Part shown: one piece after another, positions 17,254 to 60,065 of the stretch
Numbering within the stretch: the stretch's first letter is position 1
Layout: every line of letters starts with the position of its first letter
Assembly: GCA_004293915.1 (NCBI GenBank)
Contig: RDZG01000057.1
Coordinates: 1 to 64,000, forward strand
Direction of reading: 5' to 3'
Length of the DNA stretch: 64,000 bases
DNA from: Bacteroidota bacterium
GTDB taxonomy: Bacteria > Bacteroidota > Bacteroidia > Cytophagales > UBA9547
Made by a program: the position numbers and the translations under genes
Notes under the pieces: model-generated
Told to the model about the DNA's origin: nothing
Databases searched by the model: none
Seen by the model: only the letters and a program-made list of their open reading frames with translations

Positions 17254-17297
17254 GGCATAGCAATTTTGATAAAATTAGCTATGCCTTTTTTATTTTT
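17254..17297 (+). terminator. Hairpin plus T-tract, candidate htpG terminator overlapping the tcdA stop
   Basis: GGCATAGC..(loop)..GCTATGCC followed by TTTTTTATTTTT. A second palindrome TTTCCCCATTGGGGAAA lies at 17177-17195. Confidence 0.4.
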
Positions 17298-18022
17298 CGA
17301 TCTGCCAAACCTCTGATTACAACCGAAGCAAGTGTGCATCCAAAAATGGCGGGCATATAAGAAATGGTACCGATAACTGATTTTTTTCGCATATCATCTG
17401 GCGTTGCAATAACTTTATTTTTATCAATTTTTTCGTCCGAAAAAACAACTTTTAAACCCTGAAAAATACCGTGTTTATGCAATTTTTTGCGTACATCACG
17501 AGCCAATGTGCAATTATAACTTTTAGAAATATCTGTAATTTTGACTTTTGAAGGGTCGATTCTGCCTCCAGCACCCATCGAACTTACCAACGGAAGCCTG
17601 CGTTCGATACATTTCATAATCAAATGCACTTTTGGCGAAAGTGTGTCTATGGCATCCACCACATAATTATAGGTATCGGCATCGAGCAATTCATCGCATT
17701 TGGCATCTTTTACATACTCAGGCTTCAAAATCAGTTCGATTTCGGGGTTTATATCTCGCAAACGTTGTGCCAAAACTTCCACTTTAAGCAAGCCTTCGGT
17801 GGTTGCCAAAGCAGGAATTTGTCGATTTCGATTGGTTGGGTCCACCGTATCGGCATCAACCAATGTCATTTTACGGACACCTGCACGGCAAATCATTTCG
17901 GCTGCGATGCCACCAACGCCACCCAAACCAACCACAAGTACATGTGCATCAACAATCTTTTCTACTTTTTCTTCACCCAACAAAATGCCCGTTCGCTGCA
18001 TCCAAGGTCTGATATAACTCAT
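17279..18022 (-). CDS. tcdA: tRNA threonylcarbamoyladenosine dehydratase (ThiF/MoeB-family TcdA/CsdL)
   Basis: 247 aa. VLVVGLGGVGG Rossmann motif and E1-like fold. Length typical for TcdA. Confidence 0.8.
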   Translation of the reverse strand: MSYIRPWMQRTGILLGEEKVEKIVDAHVLVVGLGGVGGIAAEMICRAGVRKMTLVDADTVDPTNRNRQIPALATTEGLLKVEVLAQRLRDINPEIELILKPEYVKDAKCDELLDADTYNYVVDAIDTLSPKVHLIMKCIERRLPLVSSMGAGGRIDPSKVKITDISKSYNCTLARDVRKKLHKHGIFQGLKVVFSDEKIDKNKVIATPDDMRKKSVIGTISYMPAIFGCTLASVVIRGLADRKIKKA

Positions 18023-18177
18023 TTTTGATTTTTTTGTGCAAAGATTTATTTTTTTCGATTGATAAAAAAATTAATGTCGATTTTAGTTTTTTGCCTTAGT
18101 GGACATTTAAGATTAAACCAAAAAATAATTGGTTTGATGTCATGCTTAAATTGTTAAAAAATTAAATCAGTTTATAT

Positions 18178-18591
18178 AAAAACCAAACTTACCCACTTCA
18201 AAACTAAGTTTATTAAGTTCAAAACCAAACTTATCCACTTCAAAACAAAGTTGAGTTACTTTAGAACTAAACTAACTAACTAAAAAACCAAGTTAAGTGA
18301 GTTAAAAACCGAGTTATGTTAGTTAAATACTAAACTTACCCACTTTAAAACTAAGTTGTGTAAGTTTAAAACTAAACTAACTAACTAAAAAACTAAGTTA
18401 AGTGAGTTAAAAACCAAACTGATTGACATAAAAACTGAGTTGTGTGAGTTAAATACTAAACTTACTCACTACAAAACTAAGTTGAGTTACTTTAGAACTA
18501 AACTAACTAACTAAAAAACCAAGTTGAGTGAGTTAAAAACCGAACTTACCCACATCAAAACCGAGTTTACTTCGTTTTGAAGTGGGTAAAA
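18178..18591. repeat. Tandem array of ~18 degenerate 21-bp units ending in a hairpin, bounded by a 16-bp inverted repeat
   Basis: Exact 21-bp register from 18178 (aaaaccaaacttacccacttc / aaaactaagtttattaagttc / ...). TTACCCACTTCAAAAC at 18188-18203 is the reverse complement of GTTTTGAAGTGGGTAA at 18575-18590. Confidence 0.8.
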
Positions 18592-18737
18592 GTAGTATAT
18601 ATGTAATTTATTTAGTGTTTTAGAATATATTTTATTGTTTTATGAATTTAATGATTCATAAAATTGATGCAGGTACTATGATTATACACATCTATATCAG
18701 GCAAAAAAAATTGAATCCTCCAAAAAATGTAAAAATA

Positions 18738-19154
18738 TCAACTATGCTTATCAACAAATTCTTTACAATAGGTTTTTATTAATTCCCTCACAGCCCTAAA
18801 TTGAGCCATAATCTCATCTTCTGAGCCTTTTGCTTTGGCAGGGTCGGGAAAATTATAATGAAACTTTTGGGCTTTAGTCGGGAAATAAGGGCAACGCTCT
18901 TTGGCATTATCGCAAACGGTAATCACAAAATCAAAATCTATATCCAAATATTCGTTTATATTATTTGATGTATGTTGCGAAATATCTATCCCATCTTCTT
19001 GCATAATTAGAATTGCTTTGGGATTAACACCATGTGTTTCCACGCCAGCACTATAAATTTTTACAGCCTTATTTTTAGTAAATTCAGCCAAATAGCCATG
19101 TGCAATCTGACTTCTACAACTGTTTCCTGTGCAAAGCACCAATATATTTTTCAT
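18738..19154 (-). CDS. arsC: Arsenate reductase (LMW-PTP family ArsC)
   Basis: 138 aa. CTGNSCRS P-loop. Conserved downstream Cys residues. Confidence 0.8.
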   Translation of the reverse strand: MKNILVLCTGNSCRSQIAHGYLAEFTKNKAVKIYSAGVETHGVNPKAILIMQEDGIDISQHTSNNINEYLDIDFDFVITVCDNAKERCPYFPTKAQKFHYNFPDPAKAKGSEDEIMAQFRAVRELIKTYCKEFVDKHS

Positions 19155-19315
19155 GTTTTTACGGATTTAATGATTAAACAAAAAGCCAAATTAGATTTAT
19201 CAATGTAAATTTTGGATCAAAACCCCAAATGAGTTGAAGCCCTATAATTGAGGCAGTTATGATGATTGGTTTTTTGTATTTTAAGAATAAATTTTTCATT
19301 TTTAATATATCTGTT

Positions 19316-19846
19316 TTATTTATTTTTTGATTTCAACACTCTTTTGTATCTTGCTCTAAATGAAGGCTTTGCGTATGGAAGTTCGGCTTCTACCAATAAT
19401 TTTAGCTCGGCACACAATTCGGGAAATGGTTTTGCAATCCGAAAACCAACAATAATAGCAGACGAACGAATGGCATCGGTTTCGCTTTTGTTTTCCAAAA
19501 AATCGATGCAAACTTGAAACAACTTGCCCTCAATTTCTTTTGGAATGGCAGAAACCTCAAACATTCTAAAAATATTTCTGCGTACAGCCACATGTTTTGG
19601 GCTGCCTTCGCCAATCATGTATTCAAAAAGCGGAATTAAATACGGTTCAAAAGCCTTTGGCGAAATATCAAACGTTTTTAAAATGGCATAACCCGCTCGT
19701 TGGGTAGTTTTAAAGTCTCCGTGCATAAAAATTTCGATTAATTTTTGCAGATTTACATTGCTCAAAAGTGCCCAATTGGCAATTAGCGATGCTTGTTTGC
19801 TCGAATGTTCTTTTAAAATGGCTTCTTGCAAATCAAATTTTGACAT
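19316..19846 (-). CDS. Hypothetical alpha-helical (HEAT-like) protein, possibly DNA-alkylation-repair-like
   Basis: 176 aa. All-helical. Weak resemblance to the AlkD/AlkC-like family but shorter. Confidence 0.35.
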   Translation of the reverse strand: MSKFDLQEAILKEHSSKQASLIANWALLSNVNLQKLIEIFMHGDFKTTQRAGYAILKTFDISPKAFEPYLIPLFEYMIGEGSPKHVAVRRNIFRMFEVSAIPKEIEGKLFQVCIDFLENKSETDAIRSSAIIVGFRIAKPFPELCAELKLLVEAELPYAKPSFRARYKRVLKSKNK

Positions 19847-19893: not shown

Positions 19894-20817
19894 TTGCTCA
19901 ATAATAAAACTCATTTGCAAATTTCGGTCGAAAAAATAGCGGTTTTTACAGGGCACAAAGATTGTGTGTACACCGTTTTGGGAGATAAAAATGCCACCGA
20001 TTTTTATTCTGCTGCTGGCGATGGCATGGTTGTAAAATGGAATACTAAAAAACCCGATGAAGGCGAATTAATCGTAAAACTTCCACATTCGATTTACGCT
20101 TTACATTATTTAAAAGATAAACAGCAACTCATTATTGGTCAGAATTTTGAAGGAATACATTTGATTGATTTGGTTGAAAAAAAAGAACTAAAATCGCTCA
20201 AACTTACACAAAGTTATATTTTTGATATTTTAGTTTTTGAGCAAACTATTATTGTTGCTTGTGGCGATGGAAATGTACATATTGTTGATTTAGAGACTTT
20301 TACAAAAACAAAAACCTTATCTTTTTCCGAAAAAAGTGCTCGTTGCTTGTCCATTCATCCACATTTGAACGAATTGGCTATTGGATACAGCGACAACAAA
20401 ATTAGGATTGTTAATTTGAAAGATTTTTTGCTCCTCCAAACCATAGATGCACACACGATTTCGATTTTTAGTTTGTGCCATTCGCCAGAAAATAATTTTT
20501 TGGTGAGCGGCAGCCGCGATGCACACCTCAAATTTTGGGATTGCTGGAATCATTATGCAGCTACCGAAGATATTGTAGCACATTTGTATGCCATCAATCA
20601 TGTTGCTTATTCGCCTGATAATCAGTTTTTTGCTACTTGCAGTATGGACAAATCTATCAAAATTTGGGATGCCAAAACCAACAAACTTTTAAAAGTAATA
20701 GATAAATCCAGACATGCCGGACACGCAACTTCGGTTAATAAACTGGCTTGGCTCACTCAAAATTTACTGCTTTCGTGTAGTGATGACAAAAAAATATCGC
20801 TATGGAAAATCAATTAA
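19894..20817 (+). CDS. WD40-repeat protein
   Basis: Repeated GH...WD-type units (SGSRDAHLKFWD, CSMDKSIKIWD, CSDDKKISLWK). Confidence 0.75.
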   Translation: MLNNKTHLQISVEKIAVFTGHKDCVYTVLGDKNATDFYSAAGDGMVVKWNTKKPDEGELIVKLPHSIYALHYLKDKQQLIIGQNFEGIHLIDLVEKKELKSLKLTQSYIFDILVFEQTIIVACGDGNVHIVDLETFTKTKTLSFSEKSARCLSIHPHLNELAIGYSDNKIRIVNLKDFLLLQTIDAHTISIFSLCHSPENNFLVSGSRDAHLKFWDCWNHYAATEDIVAHLYAINHVAYSPDNQFFATCSMDKSIKIWDAKTNKLLKVIDKSRHAGHATSVNKLAWLTQNLLLSCSDDKKISLWKIN

Positions 20818-22154
20818 TCGACTATAAATCAGCTACATCTGTCGAAATAGTTTCAAAAATCGCTTCGGCACTTCGGATTAAGCTTATTGGAAAATTACTC
20901 ATCGAATGTTTTTCGCAAAACAAAGACGAATTAATTTTAGGCTTTGGCGATGCAAAAGAAGATTGTTGGATAAAAGCAAATTTTGATGTCGAAATTGGAC
21001 TTTTGAGCTTTCCAGAAATAGTGAGCAGAGCAAAAAAAAATTCGGTCGATATTTTTGCTATACTCAAAAACCTAAAAGTTTGCCATGTACATTATCATCA
21101 AAACGAACGCAGTTTTCATTTAGAATTTGAGCAAAATTATGATTTGATTTTCAAATTACATGGCAAGAACTCAAACCTAATTTTAGTCCAACATTTTAAG
21201 ACAATTGATGTTTTTAAACATAATTTACAAAACGATTTTAAAATTGATATTTTAAATTATGTACATGATAATCAAGTTGTTAAATACGAAAATATATTAG
21301 AAAATCTAACCAACTTTTATTCATCTTTTACAAAAGATTTTTATATAACAAAGCAAAAAAAACAAGCCTTTGTTGCTTTGCAAACCAAAATAAAATCAAT
21401 CGAAAAATACCTTTTTTCTGCCAAAACAAAACTTAATATTTTAGAAAATCATCTTTCGTATGATAAAATTGGACATATTTTGATGGCAAATTTGCATTTG
21501 AATATTTTAAATCAAAATGCAATAAAACTTATGGATTTTTATACCAATTTAGAAATCGAAATAAAACTAAAGCCATTGCTTTCGCTCCAAAAAAATGCAG
21601 AAATATATTATAGAAAAGCAAAAAACCAGAAAATCGAAGTTCAAAAAACCATAGAAACTATTGCTACAAAAGAAAAAGAATTAGTAAAACTCGAAATGTT
21701 ATTATCTGAAATTAATAACGCTGAGAACATAAAAGAAATTACACAAAAAACTACTAACGAAAAGCTGCTTGTTCCAAAGCAAAAAATAGCACAACAAACG
21801 CCATATCACGAACACGAACACGAAGGTTTTAAAATTTGGATTGGCAAAAATGCTCAACAAAACGATGTTTTAACCTTAAAATTTGCACACAAAGAAGACC
21901 TTTGGTTGCACGCCAAAGACAGTCCAGGTTCGCATGTGATTATAAAATTTCAGGCAGGAAAAACCATTCCCAAAACCGTGATTGAACAAGCCGCAAGTTG
22001 GGCAGCATTTTTTTCTAAACGCAAAAACGAAGGACTTGTGCCTGTGATAGTTACAAGCAAAAAATTTGTTCGCAAGCCAAAAGGTTTGCCTCCAGGTTCG
22101 GTGATTGTAGATAAAGAAGATGTGATTTTAGTAAAACCTCAAAAAACAGATTAA
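20802..22154 (+). CDS. NFACT-family (DUF814 / NFACT-R) protein, RqcH-like
   Basis: C-terminal DUF814-like block (FKIWIGKNAQQND...HAKDSPGSHVII...VPVIVTSKKFVRK). Overlaps the WD40 gene by 16 bp. Confidence 0.65.
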   Translation: MENQLIDYKSATSVEIVSKIASALRIKLIGKLLIECFSQNKDELILGFGDAKEDCWIKANFDVEIGLLSFPEIVSRAKKNSVDIFAILKNLKVCHVHYHQNERSFHLEFEQNYDLIFKLHGKNSNLILVQHFKTIDVFKHNLQNDFKIDILNYVHDNQVVKYENILENLTNFYSSFTKDFYITKQKKQAFVALQTKIKSIEKYLFSAKTKLNILENHLSYDKIGHILMANLHLNILNQNAIKLMDFYTNLEIEIKLKPLLSLQKNAEIYYRKAKNQKIEVQKTIETIATKEKELVKLEMLLSEINNAENIKEITQKTTNEKLLVPKQKIAQQTPYHEHEHEGFKIWIGKNAQQNDVLTLKFAHKEDLWLHAKDSPGSHVIIKFQAGKTIPKTVIEQAASWAAFFSKRKNEGLVPVIVTSKKFVRKPKGLPPGSVIVDKEDVILVKPQKTD

Positions 22155-36351: not shown

Positions 36352-36355
36352 ACAT

Positions 36356-36509
36356 GAATGGAGAATTGAGAATGGAGAATTGAGAATGAATTTGTTTTAG
36401 AAATATTAAAATATATTTATTCTCGGTTTTTCATTCTCAATTCTCAATTAAAAATTCTCAATTCTCAATTAAAAATTCTCCATTCTCAATTCTCAATTCT
36501 CAATTAAGA
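36356..36509. repeat. Long imperfect inverted repeat built from heptamer repeats (GAGAATT/GAGAATG versus ATTCTCA), intercistronic
   Basis: gaatggagaattgagaatggagaattgagaatgaa ... 40-nt AT loop ... ttcattctcaattctcaatt aaaa attctcaattctcaatt aaaa attctccattctcaattctcaattctcaatt. Confidence 0.75.
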
Positions 36510-37323: not shown

Positions 37324-37403
37324 TCTTTATCCATCTATCTTTTGATTCTGCAAAATCAAAGTATAAATTACTATTAAAATGGAGTATTTAAAGTTATTAT
37401 ATA

Positions 37404-37659
37404 TAAATATGCCTATTTTATAACTAACTATGACAGTTTTACAATAAAATATGCCTAATTTAAAAGTAAATTTGTGAGTTTTATAAGTAAATGTGTCAAT
37501 ATTATTATAAATGTTACGAATTTAATAACAAATGTTACAAATTTAGCATTGAATTTGCCAAATTTATAACTAAAATAGGCAAATTTAATACCAAATATCA
37601 CAAATTTAATGCTGAATTCGACATATTTAACTACAAAATAGGCATATTTTATTTAACTT
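37404..37659. repeat. Tandem array of ~12 degenerate 21-bp units between the permease and ATPase genes
   Basis: aatatgcctaatttaaaagta / aatttgtgagttttataagta / aatgttacgaatttaataaca / aatttgccaaatttataacta / aaataggcaaatttaatacca / ... The ORF-track 74-aa ORF here is a repeat artefact. Confidence 0.75.
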
Positions 37660-37814
37660 ATTACAACTTTGATTTATTACATAACAAACAAAATTATAAA
37701 AAAGACAAATTTTAAATAAAATAGTAGGTAATAAATAGTAAAATAGTCAGTAGTAACTGCAATTATCACATAAACAACACAAAATATTAATTCTTAATTA
37801 TCAATTCTTAAAAT

Positions 37815-38666
37815 ATGGATGCTCAACAACTAGCCTACGAAGAAACTTACGAAAAAAATAAACTTACACAACCCGTGTGTATAGATATAAAAGACGTTAC
37901 TATAAGTTTTGATACCCCAAAAGGTATATATTGTGCCGTAAAAAATGTTAGTCTTCAAATCAAGAAAGGACAAATTGTGTCTATCATTGGACATTCAGGC
38001 TGTGGTAAATCTACATTGATGAATACCATTTCGGGAATGGTAAAACCTACCGATGGCGAAGTATATGCAAACGGTAAATTAGTAAAAGGTCCGGGTCCTG
38101 ACAGAGGAATTGTGTTTCAAAATTACTCTTTGTTGCCTTGGCTTACTGTATACGAAAACATTTATGTAGCAGTAGAAAGTGTATTAAAAGGAAAATCAGC
38201 TGTAGAGCTAGCTAAAATAGCCGAAGAAAACCTACGCATGGTTAATCTTTGGGTACATAAAGACAAATTGCCAAGTCAGCTATCAGGAGGCATGAAACAA
38301 CGCACCGCTATTGCTCGTGCATTTGCCATAAATCCAAGTATTTTACTTTTGGATGAGCCTTTTGGTGCATTAGATGCCCTTACCAAAGGTACTATGCATA
38401 TCGAATTGCTAAAACTTTGGAACTTAGATAATAGAAACAAAACTATTGTGATGGTAACTCACGATATTGACGAAGCTATTTTCCTTTCTGATATTGTAGT
38501 TGTGATGAATAACGGACCAGCTGCCACTATCAAAGAAATAGTTGAAGTACCATTGCCACGATTACGCAATAAAAAAGAAATAGTACAGCAACCCAATTAT
38601 ATTTCAACACATAACAAACTGATGAATTTGTTATTCGATAAGTTTGATATCACTGATATTCATTAA
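37815..38666 (+). CDS. ABC transporter ATP-binding protein (NrtD/SsuB-type)
   Basis: Walker A GHSGCGKST, signature LSGGMKQR, Walker B LLLDEPFGALD. Confidence 0.8.
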   Translation: MDAQQLAYEETYEKNKLTQPVCIDIKDVTISFDTPKGIYCAVKNVSLQIKKGQIVSIIGHSGCGKSTLMNTISGMVKPTDGEVYANGKLVKGPGPDRGIVFQNYSLLPWLTVYENIYVAVESVLKGKSAVELAKIAEENLRMVNLWVHKDKLPSQLSGGMKQRTAIARAFAINPSILLLDEPFGALDALTKGTMHIELLKLWNLDNRNKTIVMVTHDIDEAIFLSDIVVVMNNGPAATIKEIVEVPLPRLRNKKEIVQQPNYISTHNKLMNLLFDKFDITDIH

Positions 38667-59985: not shown

Positions 59986-60065
59986 TGCGGCTGGAGGGAC
60001 TTGAACCCCCATGGTTGCCCGCTAGATCCTAAGTCTAGTGCGTCTGCCAATTTCGCCACAGCCGC
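59986..60065 (-). tRNA. tRNA-Leu (anticodon TAG)
   Basis: Reverse complement GCGGCTGTGGCGAAATTGGCAGACGCACTAGACTTAGGATCTAGCGGGCAACCATGGGGGTTCAAGTCCCTCCAGCCGCA. Cloverleaf with GGCGAAATTGGCAGACGC D-arm, anticodon loop CTTAGGA, long variable arm, TTCAAGT T-loop. Confidence 0.8.

What the first reader, a model, noticed from the sequence alone, without database searches (positions are those of the whole stretch)
18178..18591. A 21-bp-periodic tandem array of 18 units, bounded by 16-bp inverted repeats and ending in a hairpin, in the arsC-tcdA intergenic region
From 18178 the sequence stays in an exact 21-nt register for 18 units, each starting AAAAC or AAATAC. There are three alternating unit classes: one with core ACTTACCCACTT, one with its partial complement AGTTGAGTGAGTT, and CTAACTAACTAA. 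There is also a higher-order repeat of 231 bp, in which units 4-6 reappear as units 15-17. The first unit contains TTACCCACTTCAAAAC, and its exact reverse complement GTTTTGAAGTGGGTAA closes the array, so the whole array resembles a TIR-bounded element. 21 bp is two helical turns, so any bound protein would lie on one face of the DNA, as with iterons, nucleoid-protein nucleation sites or phased-bend DNA. It is not CRISPR-like, because there are no unique spacers. A second array of unrelated sequence but with the same 21-bp period sits at 37404-37659.
Basis: seen in the sequence. Interest (0 to 1): 0.6.

Follow-up and report, generated by a model that had tools for sequence, protein, structure and literature searches.

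The report
Strain-variable 21-base intergenic repeat array
Between two housekeeping-type genes of an uncultured Bacteroidota bacterium lies a real, non-coding array of 19 repeats, each exactly 21 bases long; it changes in unit number or is absent in close relatives, so it is best read as a bacterial minisatellite of the REP/BOX/BrickBuilt kind, not a new type of genetic system.

Summary
Window 18178-18576 holds 19 units (not 18) in an exact 21-nt register with no indels. The three unit classes and the 231-bp higher-order repeat are confirmed. An exact 16-nt inverted repeat sits at 18189-18204 and 18574-18589. The array is non-coding (no ORF over 24 aa), has no Rfam match, and has no sequence relatives in plasmid, phage, viral or JGI metagenome collections.

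New evidence from related assemblies:
- A relative of about 85% identity (L047) has the same locus, arsC-array-tcdA. Its array has 15 units in the same strict register, an identical last unit and a perfect terminal hairpin, but different interior units.
- One close relative (93-97% identity) lacks the array (L046). Three others lack the array and arsC together (L022-L024).

So this is an old, fast-turning-over, dispensable VNTR anchored on a conserved hairpin. The "TIR-bounded element" reading is weak. The closing arm is simply an inverted A-type unit that matches five units. There is no target-site duplication, and the empty sites are not cut at the repeats. No other copy lies in the 64 kb.

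Most likely role: a structured spacer or terminator region downstream of arsC (inferred). A neutral minisatellite is the close rival. All three long arrays in the window share period 21, and that is unexplained.

The parts
18178..18576 (.). Array of 19 units in exact 21-nt register. The A-rich strand is the + strand, antisense to both flanking genes. Consensus AAAAACTAAGTTTACTCACTT. Positions 2, 5, 6, 9 and 12 are invariant. Mean pairwise unit identity is 67%.
18546..18589 (.). Terminal hairpin. Arms are 18546-18561 (last A-type unit) and 18574-18589 (inverted unit), with a 12-nt loop. It has one mismatch here and is perfect in L047. Apart from the tcdA-proximal 68 nt, it is the best conserved part of the intergenic region.
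18189..18204 (+). Distal exact 16-nt partner of the closing arm (TTACCCACTTCAAAAC). It is one of five A-type units that match the arm, so it is probably not a special terminus.
18262..18282 (.). C-type unit (TAGAACTAAACTAACTAACTA). CTAACTAACTAA carries stop codons in all three frames on both strands. Further copies are at 18367-18387 and 18493-18513.
   Evidence: read directly from the sequence; (no ORF over 24 aa)
18117..18177 (.). Left flank found only in array-bearing haplotypes (window, L025, L047). It contains the small hairpin AAACCAAAAAATAATTGGTTT (18115-18135).
18591..18737 (.). Spacer between the array and the arsC stop codon. It contains the palindrome TTTTATGAAT..ATTCATAAAA (18638-18663). 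Compared with L047 it has multi-base gaps, unlike the array itself.
18023..18090 (-). tcdA-proximal upstream region, almost invariant in the window, L022, L046 and L047. It is the likely core promoter/operator of tcdA. The array lies upstream of it.
18738..19154 (-). arsC (LMWPc, thioredoxin-type arsenate reductase). The array lies about 150 nt downstream of its stop codon, on the same transcriptional strand.
17279..18022 (-). tcdA (ThiF family, tRNA threonylcarbamoyladenosine dehydratase).
18091..18723 (.). Segment missing in the close relative L046, where arsC and tcdA are 111 nt apart. About 8 nt take its place, including a possible relic TTACCCA.
18117..19308 (.). Segment (array plus arsC) replaced by 36 unrelated nt in the close relatives L022-L024.
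37398..37649 (.). Second 21-nt array of unrelated sequence, with 12 units. Units 1-6 are direct and units 7-12 are their inverted counterparts (AAATATGCCTATTTT / AAAATAGGCATATTT). It lies between the ABC permease and ATPase genes.

Best explanation
The array is a lineage-specific, non-coding minisatellite (VNTR) of the structured intergenic-repeat kind, comparable to REP/BIME, BOX and the BrickBuilt minisatellite. It is not an autonomous or demonstrably mobile element.

It sits downstream of arsC and upstream of the conserved tcdA promoter region. It is anchored on a conserved 16-18-bp hairpin.

It grows, shrinks and is lost by whole-unit slippage or unequal recombination. That automatically keeps the 21-nt register while the interior units turn over. 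This evolutionary pattern is shown by the comparisons.

The two quasi-complementary unit classes share a strand-asymmetric AAAAC head. As a result, either single strand folds into a chain of hairpins closed by the terminal arm. This is a prediction.

My inferred mechanism is as follows. The hairpin, and to a lesser degree the array, is transcribed as the arsC 3' region. There it acts as a terminator, RNA-stabilising element or insulator that separates arsC from tcdA. Unit number has at most a modulatory effect. The array is dispensable.
For: - Non-coding: no ORF over 24 aa, and six-frame stops in the C units.
- No Rfam family matches.
- Copy-number and presence/absence polymorphism at one orthologous locus: 19 units in the window; 15 units in L047 with the same register, an identical last unit (21/21), a similar first unit (18/21) and a perfect hairpin; 0 units in L046; array and arsC both absent in L022-L024.
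- Interior units of the window and L047 have no one-to-one orthology.
- The flanking spacer shows multi-base gaps between the window and L047, while the arrays have none in 34 units.
- Predicted folding is well beyond shuffles on both strands: z = -5.3 and -5.2 for the window, -4.7 for L047.
- Two other intergenic palindromic arrays in the same window also fold strongly (z = -4.3 and -6.2). One sits just after a substrate-binding-protein gene inside an ABC operon, the classic REP position. An ~80%-identity relative has unrelated hairpins at that same spot.
- The tcdA-proximal 68 nt are conserved whether or not the array is present.
- Published analogues in Bacteroidetes exist: BrickBuilt, a 23-nt intergenic minisatellite that varies between strains and has more variable positions in the second half of the unit (PMC4596501); and heptamer arrays that are absent from close relatives (PMC4679880).
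Against: - There are no expression data, so transcription of the array and any terminator or stabiliser effect are inferred.
- The consensus terminator scan found no hairpin-plus-T-run site on either strand.
- Both strands fold about equally well, so folding does not identify a functional strand.
- High fold scores are partly an automatic result of having inverted unit classes.
- Pure unit-wise turnover does not explain why all three long arrays in the window have period 21.
- It also does not explain why the array persisted across about 15% sequence divergence despite repeated loss.
- A fully neutral minisatellite fits the comparative data almost as well.
Confidence: 0.5

Rival explanations
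1. Neutral minisatellite with no function. It would be a by-product of slippage or unequal recombination seeded by a hairpin, tolerated in a variable intergenic region.
For: - It is dispensable: absent in L046 and L022-L024, which are 93-97% identical elsewhere.
- The interior turns over completely.
- No dispersed copies or solitary units occur in the 64 kb.
- It has no relatives in public collections.
Against: - It is retained at 15-19 units in two lineages about 15% diverged.
- It has no register-breaking indel in 34 units, although the adjacent spacer has several.
- The skeleton positions (2, 5 and 12) are invariant in both lineages.
- Three unrelated arrays in the window share period 21.
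Confidence: 0.25
2. Phased protein-binding array on DNA, iteron-like or a nucleation or insulator site for a nucleoid-associated protein. A conserved roughly 12-nt head would be presented every two helical turns on one face.
For: - The period is exactly 21 bp in two lineages.
- The head (AAAAC.AA..T) is conserved and the tail is variable.
- Every long array in the window has period 21.
- Array 2 is the most curved 147-bp stretch of the window in a wedge model.
Against: - No solitary sites occur elsewhere in the 64 kb.
- None of the six flanking genes scanned is a rep, par or regulator gene.
- The array is absent in sister strains.
- Array 1 is only moderately curved, at about the 2nd-10th percentile, and the wedge parameters were recalled from memory.
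- Arrays 1 and 2 share no sequence, so one protein cannot explain both by sequence recognition.
Confidence: 0.12
3. Non-autonomous transposable element: a MITE with an internal minisatellite, like BrickBuilt, bounded by the 16-nt inverted repeats.
For: An exact 16-nt inverted repeat lies at the two ends. Presence/absence polymorphism is seen among relatives. There is a precedent in Porphyromonas (PMC4596501).
Against: - The inverted arm matches five internal units, so it is not a distinct terminus.
- In L047 the first unit is a poor partner.
- There is no target-site duplication (sequence).
- Empty sites are not bounded by the repeats.
- The array occupies the same locus in a 15%-diverged relative, which points to vertical inheritance.
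- No second copy occurs in the 64 kb or in the plasmid, phage, viral or JGI metagenome collections.
- It has no leader or tail segments with IS-like ends.
Confidence: 0.06
4. Promoter-bearing or invertible upstream region for tcdA. The units would create Bacteroidetes-type -7 boxes (TAnnTTTG) on the gene-sense strand, or the inverted repeats would flank an invertible promoter (inverton).
For: Four TAnnTTTG matches lie on the minus strand and none on the plus strand. One full TTG-N19-TAnnTTTG match runs 18228 to 18199, pointing at tcdA. BrickBuilt segments have promoter activity.
Against: - In L047 the matches lie at the other end of the array.
- In array 2 the same motif points away from the downstream gene.
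- tcdA keeps a conserved 68-nt upstream region and does without the array in L046 and L022.
- Both assemblies show the same orientation, and the distal inverted repeat is not conserved.
Confidence: 0.05
5. Decayed coding sequence of a heptad-repeat (coiled-coil) protein. In the frame starting at 18179 the units read KTKLTHF / KTKLSEL.
For: The heptad-like reading has L at position 4 and F or L at position 7 (sequence). The same DNA skeleton retrieved genuine coding KTEL-type heptad repeats in other genomes.
Against: Stops occur in every frame on both strands in the window, and the heptad frame of L047 also meets a stop. No flanking ORF remnant, start or end is present. A pseudogene would be expected to collect indels, and none is seen.
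Confidence: 0.02

Closest known systems
BrickBuilt MITE/minisatellite of Porphyromonas gingivalis (Klein et al. 2015, PMC4596501)
   Same: Bacteroidota. Strictly intergenic. A tandem unit of about two helical turns (23 nt against 21 nt) with no spacers. Units are imperfect, with the second half more variable. Unit number differs between loci and strains. Inverted repeats lie at the ends, and secondary structure is predicted.
   Different: [quoted passage not shown] It has 19 dispersed copies per genome, up to 6% indels within arrays, and measured promoter activity. Here the inverted arm is itself a unit. There is no leader or tail, no second copy in the 64 kb, no indels and two quasi-complementary unit classes. 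There is no sequence similarity.
BOX elements of Streptococcus pneumoniae (boxA-boxB(n)-boxC); from my own knowledge
   Same: Modular intergenic repeat with a variable number of tandem internal modules and complementary ends that close a long stem-loop.
   Different: BOX has about 100 or more dispersed copies, a 45-bp boxB module and distinct A and C end modules. It is from a different phylum.
REP/BIME elements of enterobacteria; from my own knowledge
   Same: Intergenic and often intra-operon position after a gene. Palindromic units occur in alternating orientation. Known roles are mRNA 3' stabilisation, termination, and binding of IHF or gyrase. These roles are my working analogy for function.
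   Different: REPs are about 35-40-nt GC-rich palindromes present in hundreds of copies. They do not form strictly phased 21-nt arrays.
Long simple-sequence / heptamer direct-repeat arrays in Bacteroidetes and Cyanobacteria (MacGregor 2015, PMC4679880)
   Same: Long intergenic arrays in Bacteroidetes that are missing from the shorter intergenic regions of close relatives. The window also carries heptamer arrays just before start codons (36433-36505 and 37785-37811).
   Different: Those units are 7 nt long. Array 1 has no 7-nt sub-periodicity (lag 7 autocorrelation 0.23).
Plasmid iterons and partition centromeres (e.g. sopC, 12 x 43 bp); from my own knowledge
   Same: Direct repeats in strict helical register.
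   Different: No rep or par gene was seen among the genes next to the array. The context is chromosomal. The array is absent in sister strains. Plasmid and phage collections give no match.

Membership tests
Bacterial minisatellite / VNTR | Head-to-tail tandem units of 10-100 bp | tested here: met
   19 units of 21 nt in exact register
Bacterial minisatellite / VNTR | Unit number varies between related strains at the same locus | tested here: met
   19 units (window), 15 (L047), 0 (L046, L022-L024) between the same flanking genes
MITE (including BrickBuilt) | Distinct terminal inverted repeats that define the element ends | tested here: inconclusive
   An exact 16-nt inverted repeat exists, but the arm is an inverted unit that matches five units. 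The distal partner is not conserved in L047.
MITE (including BrickBuilt) | Target-site duplication, and empty sites cut precisely at the TIRs | tested here: not met
   No direct repeat flanks 18178 or 18589. L046 lacks 18091-18723 and L022-L024 lack 18117-19308.
MITE (including BrickBuilt) | Multiple dispersed copies in the genome | tested here: inconclusive
   None in the 64-kb window. None in JGI metagenomes, viral contigs, plasmids or phages. The rest of this genome was not available.
BrickBuilt | Sequence similarity of the 23-nt brick, the leader/tail or the IS5-like TIR (GAGACCTTTGCA) | tested here: not met
   Compared by eye with the TIR sequences printed in the paper. The unit length differs (21 against 23 nt) and no such TIR is present in 18100-18750.
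CRISPR array | Conserved repeats that alternate with unique spacers of similar length, usually with cas genes | tested here: not met
   Units abut with no spacers, and the classes recur.
Iterons / plasmid origin or centromere | Adjacent rep or par gene and a replicon context | tested here: not met
   The neighbours are tcdA, arsC, htpG, a WD40 gene and an NFACT gene. No plasmid match. The array is absent in sister strains.
oriC / DnaA-box cluster | Essential and conserved locus with DnaA boxes (TTATCCACA) and a GC-skew switch | tested here: not met
   Only unit 3 comes within one mismatch (TTATCCACT). There is no skew switch at 18 kb. The locus is deleted in close relatives.
Known RNA family (Rfam 15) | Score at or above the family's gathering threshold | tested here: not met
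   The only hit in the window is a tRNA at 59986-60065. In the region the best sub-threshold hits have E of 0.2 or more.
Intrinsic terminator | GC-containing hairpin followed directly by a T run on the sense strand | tested here: inconclusive
   On the minus strand a 16-20-bp hairpin is followed by GTTCGGTTTTT. It fails the scan's rule of at least 5 T in 8 nt within 2 nt of the stem. Whether Bacteroidota terminators need a canonical U tract was not checked.
Intrinsically curved (phased A-tract) DNA | Predicted or measured curvature far above the genomic background | tested here: inconclusive
   Wedge model: array 1 has an end-to-end/contour ratio of 0.78-0.85, against a window mean of 0.93 and a 1st percentile of 0.75. 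Array 2 scores 0.62, the lowest in the window. The parameters were recalled from memory.
Inverton (invertible promoter) | Both orientations present in reads; conserved flanking inverted repeats | not testable with these tools
   Only assemblies are available. The window and L047 have the same orientation, and the distal repeat is not conserved.

The most novel reading that the evidence does not exclude
Arrays with an exact 21-bp (two-turn) period may be a functional class of cis-element in this uncultured Bacteroidota lineage. Three are known in this window: 18178, 36433 and 37398. They would be read by shape or phasing rather than by sequence. One form would be a nucleation or insulator platform for a nucleoid-associated protein. 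Another would be a transcribed 'sponge' RNA that displays about 19 single-stranded A-rich (or U-rich) loops between hairpins. Either way, selection would act on the register itself.
Probability: 0.12. Interest if true: 0.6.

Novelty: new variant of a known kind. Interest (0 to 1): 0.3.

Why it matters
In itself it matters little. It adds a well-documented case of a structured, strain-variable minisatellite in an uncultured Bacteroidota lineage, where few such elements besides BrickBuilt have been described.

It is useful in practice in two ways. It can serve as a strain marker. It also shows why short-read assemblies can break at this kind of locus; one relative's contig ends about 20 nt before the array.

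The one point that could grow into something larger is the shared period. Every long array in the window has period 21, and the register survived about 15% divergence without a single indel while the neighbouring spacer did not. If that reflects selection on helical phasing, these arrays would be a testable model for shape-read cis-elements in Bacteroidota.

Tried and rejected
- **Rfam.** Gathering thresholds on the whole window and E up to 10 on the region gave nothing relevant.
- **Three-unit skeleton scan of 185,579 species genomes**. It returned 21 loci in unrelated phyla. Some are true heptad-coding repeats (KTEL...) and some are apparently non-coding 21-nt arrays. They were selected by my own pattern, so they say nothing about homology or enrichment. 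The source locus itself was not among them.
- **Specific 20-mer (AAACTTAYCCACTTNAAAAC)** in JGI metagenomes and viral contigs. Only single, non-arrayed chance hits came back.
- **blastn of 18117-18737** against plasmids and phages: no match.
- **Synteny in more distant TcdA relatives** (L026, L027-L032, L050). The neighbourhood differs and there is no array. A TRF period-21 hit in L027 turned out to be a 52-bp duplication.
- **oriC or DnaA-box idea.** Rejected because of no skew switch, poor boxes and a deletable locus.
- **Heptad pseudogene.** Rejected because stops occur in every frame.
- **Alternative genetic code.** Rejected because the neighbouring genes read normally in table 11.
- **Dispersed binding motif.** A PWM built from 34 units finds nothing above shuffles.
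- **The 47099 period-21 TRF hit.** It lies inside a coding region and is only 2 copies.
- **Exact look-ups of the window's own TcdA and ArsC proteins.** These failed, so the source contig could not be fetched. It is apparently an NCBI 'Bacteroidetes bacterium' MAG contig of 90,665 bp.
Full report
**1. What is in the sequence**

Read from 18178, the + strand falls into 19 consecutive 21-nt units (18178-18576) with no insertion or deletion. All twelve strongest autocorrelation lags are multiples of 21 (231, 126, 42, 84 and so on). Lags 7, 10, 11 and 14 are at background. TRF reports the same array at periods 21, 42, 63, 105 and 126 with 0-1% indels. A two-unit skeleton (AAAACYRARYT, then 10 N, then AAAACYRARYT) hits nine times here and nowhere else in 64 kb, against zero in shuffles.

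- A (AAACTTACCCACTT): units 1, 3, 8, 14 and 18, and in degenerate form unit 12.
- B (AAGTTGAGTGAGTT): ten units.
- C (AAACTAACTAACTA): units 5, 10 and 16.

Units 4-6 recur as units 15-17, 231 bp later.

Mean pairwise unit identity is only 67%. Positions 2, 5, 6, 9 and 12 are nevertheless invariant. Each unit therefore has a conserved head (AAAAC.AA..T) and a variable 9-nt tail. All heads lie on the same strand (A 177, T 109, C 70, G 43 on the + strand). B is therefore not a simple inversion of A. It is a class whose tail is about 10/12 complementary to the A tail when G-U pairs are allowed (read from the sequence).

The exact 16-mer TTACCCACTTCAAAAC occurs at 18189-18204. Its reverse complement occurs at 18574-18589. 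The latter pairs locally with the last A unit (18546-18561, one mismatch) to form the terminal hairpin.

The flanking genes are a ThiF/TcdA-type gene (17279-18022, minus strand) and a thioredoxin-type ArsC gene of the LMWPc fold (18738-19154, minus strand).

**2. It is non-coding and matches no known RNA**

No ORF longer than 24 aa crosses 18023-18737. The C units (CTAACTAACTAA) carry stop codons in all six frames.

In the frame starting at 18179 the units read like heptads (KTKLTHF, KTKLSEL), but stops interrupt this frame. The same DNA skeleton retrieved genuine heptad-coding genes elsewhere. That explains the resemblance without implying coding here.

Rfam gives only a tRNA at 59986-60065. 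Nothing near a gathering threshold lies in the region.

**3. Comparative evidence (the main new result)**

The closest TcdA and ArsC proteins come from uncultured Bacteroidota in Logan assemblies. The source appears to be an NCBI 'Bacteroidetes bacterium' MAG. Four haplotypes of the locus exist.

- (a) **Window type.** It is also supported by L025, whose contig carries the window-specific left flank and stops at 18155, 23 nt before the array.
- (b) **L047**, about 84-87% nucleotide identity. It has the gene order 175-aa gene, arsC, array, tcdA. Its array has 15 units in the same strict 21-nt register. The first unit is homologous (18/21) and the last unit is identical (21/21). The same terminal hairpin is present and here is perfect. 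The interior units have no one-to-one counterpart in the window, and AAACT-type tails dominate.
- (c) **L046**, 93-97% identity. arsC lies 111 nt from tcdA. Window 18091-18723 is missing, with about 8 nt in its place that include a possible relic TTACCCA.
- (d) **L022-L024**, 96-97% identity. Window 18117-19308 (array plus arsC) is replaced by 36 unrelated nt.

More distant relatives have a different gene order and no array.

From this I infer that the array predates the split of the window and L047 lineages. Its interior has turned over, but the period, the skeleton and the ends have not. It has been lost at least twice. It is therefore dispensable.

The non-repeat spacer between arsC and the array shows multi-base gaps between the window and L047. 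The 34 array units show none. This is what whole-unit gain and loss would produce, and it may also reflect constraint on the register.

The 68 nt next to the tcdA start codon are almost invariant in all four haplotypes. The tcdA core promoter therefore does not depend on the array.

**4. Is it a TIR-bounded mobile element?**

Probably not.
- The closing arm matches five A units with 0-2 mismatches. Unit 1 being the perfect match does not mark a terminus.
- In L047 the first unit is a poor partner, and only the local hairpin is conserved.
- No target-site duplication flanks the array.
- Neither kind of empty site is cut at the repeats.
- No further copy of the 16-mer or of the unit exists in the window. 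This was tested with a PWM built from 34 units, whose best off-array score is 13 bits. Shuffled sequence reaches up to 17.5 bits, and real units have a median of 21.5 bits.
- A specific 20-mer found only isolated chance hits in JGI metagenomes and viral contigs.
- blastn found nothing in plasmids or phages.
- The rest of the genome could not be searched, so copy number genome-wide remains open.

**5. Structure and other properties**

As single strands, both strands of 18160-18610 fold far better than dinucleotide shuffles (z = -5.3 and -5.2). The terminal arm closes the whole structure. L047 does the same (z = -4.7), with an 18-bp perfect terminal stem. This is partly automatic for a sequence built from quasi-complementary unit classes, and it does not identify a functional strand.

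The consensus scan finds no canonical terminator. On the gene-sense (minus) strand the hairpin is followed by GTTCGGTTTTT.

Bacteroidetes-type -7 boxes (TAnnTTTG, a consensus taken from my own knowledge of the Bacteroides and Flavobacterium promoter literature) occur four times on the minus strand and never on the plus strand. One full TTG-N19-TAnnTTTG match runs from 18228 to 18199. In L047 the matches lie at the opposite end of the array. In array 2 they point away from the downstream gene. I therefore treat them as by-products of the unit sequence.

A wedge-model curvature estimate, with parameters recalled from memory, makes array 1 moderately curved (0.78-0.85, against a window mean of 0.93). 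Array 2 is the most curved stretch of the whole window (0.62).

**6. The second array and the genomic habit**

The segment 37398-37649 holds 12 units of 21 nt of unrelated sequence. Units 1-6 are direct and units 7-12 are their inverted counterparts (for example AAATATGCCTATTTT and AAAATAGGCATATTT). It folds with z = -4.3. It is identical in an independent assembly (L048). It lies between the permease and ATPase genes of a nitrate-type ABC transporter.

Between the substrate-binding-protein and permease genes of the same operon, heptamer arrays (GAGAATG/GAGAATT, then ATTCTCA x10, with a 21-nt super-unit) form a long hairpin (z = -6.2). An ~80%-identity relative has unrelated GC hairpins at that position. 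This is the classical position of REP elements (my own knowledge).

A lag scan of the whole window found strong periodicity only at these three loci, at lags of 14, 21, 42 and 63. All TRF arrays with a period of at least 10 and at least 3 copies have period 21 or 42. I cannot explain this shared period by unit-wise turnover alone.

**7. Interpretation**

The best-supported description is a lineage-specific, non-coding, strain-variable minisatellite of the structured intergenic-repeat kind, anchored on a conserved hairpin downstream of arsC.

- Shown: periodicity, unit classes, non-coding status, copy-number and presence/absence polymorphism, conserved ends, and a turned-over interior.
- Predicted: strong folding.
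- Inferred: the hairpin and array are part of the arsC 3' region and act as a terminator, stabiliser or insulator between arsC and tcdA. Unit number would have at most a modulatory effect.

A purely neutral VNTR is the main rival. A phased protein-binding array is the most interesting reading that has not been excluded.

**8. Comparison with known systems**

The closest published analogue is BrickBuilt of Porphyromonas gingivalis. It has 23-nt bricks, is intergenic, varies between strains and has a more variable second half of the unit. It also has leader and tail segments with IS5-like TIRs, 19 dispersed copies and measured promoter activity (PMC4596501). None of those last features could be shown here, and several were tested and not met.

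Heptamer arrays in Bacteroidetes that are missing from close relatives (PMC4679880) show that such strain-specific intergenic arrays are a known habit of the phylum. BOX and REP/BIME elements are functional analogies only.

**9. Verdict**

This is a real feature and was accurately observed. It is a new sequence variant of a known kind of element, of modest interest. The recurring exact 21-bp period is the only aspect that deserves follow-up.

Noticed in passing
window 36355-36505: Heptamer arrays GAGAATG/GAGAATT (36356-36388) and their complement ATTCTCA x10 (36433-36505, 21-nt super-unit ATTCTCAATTCTCAATTAAAA). Together they form a roughly 30-bp hairpin (z = -6.2) between the substrate-binding-protein and permease genes of a nitrate-type ABC operon. 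The hairpin ends 8 nt before the permease ATG. An ~80%-identity relative (L049) has unrelated GC hairpins at the same spot.
   Followed up: partly
window 37398-37649: The second 21-nt array is organised as a large imperfect palindrome: units 1-6 are direct and units 7-12 inverted. In a wedge model it is the most curved 147-bp stretch of the 64 kb. It is identical in the independent assembly L048.
   Followed up: partly
window 37785-37811: A short heptamer-like repeat (TTAATTC / ATCAATTCTTAAT) ends 4 nt before the ATPase start codon at 37815. It recalls the start-codon-proximal heptamer repeats described for Beggiatoaceae and some Bacteroidetes (PMC4679880).
   Followed up: no
window 18117-19308, against L022-L024 and L046: arsC is itself a presence/absence gene in this population. 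Three assemblies at 96-97% identity replace arsC plus the array with 36 unrelated nt. Another keeps arsC but lacks the array.
   Followed up: yes
window 18023-18090: The 68 nt upstream of tcdA are almost invariant across haplotypes down to about 85% overall identity. They contain an inverted pair, TCGA..(19 nt)..TCGA (ATCGACATTAATTTTTTTATCAATCGA), which may be an operator or promoter element.
   Followed up: partly
L008 155-621; L019 3320-3758; L021 1-336; L016 1-298; L014 3615-3832: Other Bacteroidota MAGs carry long 21-nt arrays with two or three unit classes in one register. For example, L008 has 22 units in three classes and L021 has a strict 42-nt alternation. They were retrieved by my own 21-nt-spaced pattern, so enrichment cannot be judged. 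Some may be coding.
   Followed up: partly
window 19894-22154: A 307-aa WD40 beta-propeller gene overlaps by 16 nt the start of a 450-aa NFACT-like gene (NFACT_N middle part plus NFACT-R_1). The pair is conserved in the close relatives L022-L024.
   Followed up: no
window 19316-19846 (-): A 176-aa protein next to arsC has no Pfam or NCBIfam match. It is present in all haplotypes examined, with or without the array.
   Followed up: partly
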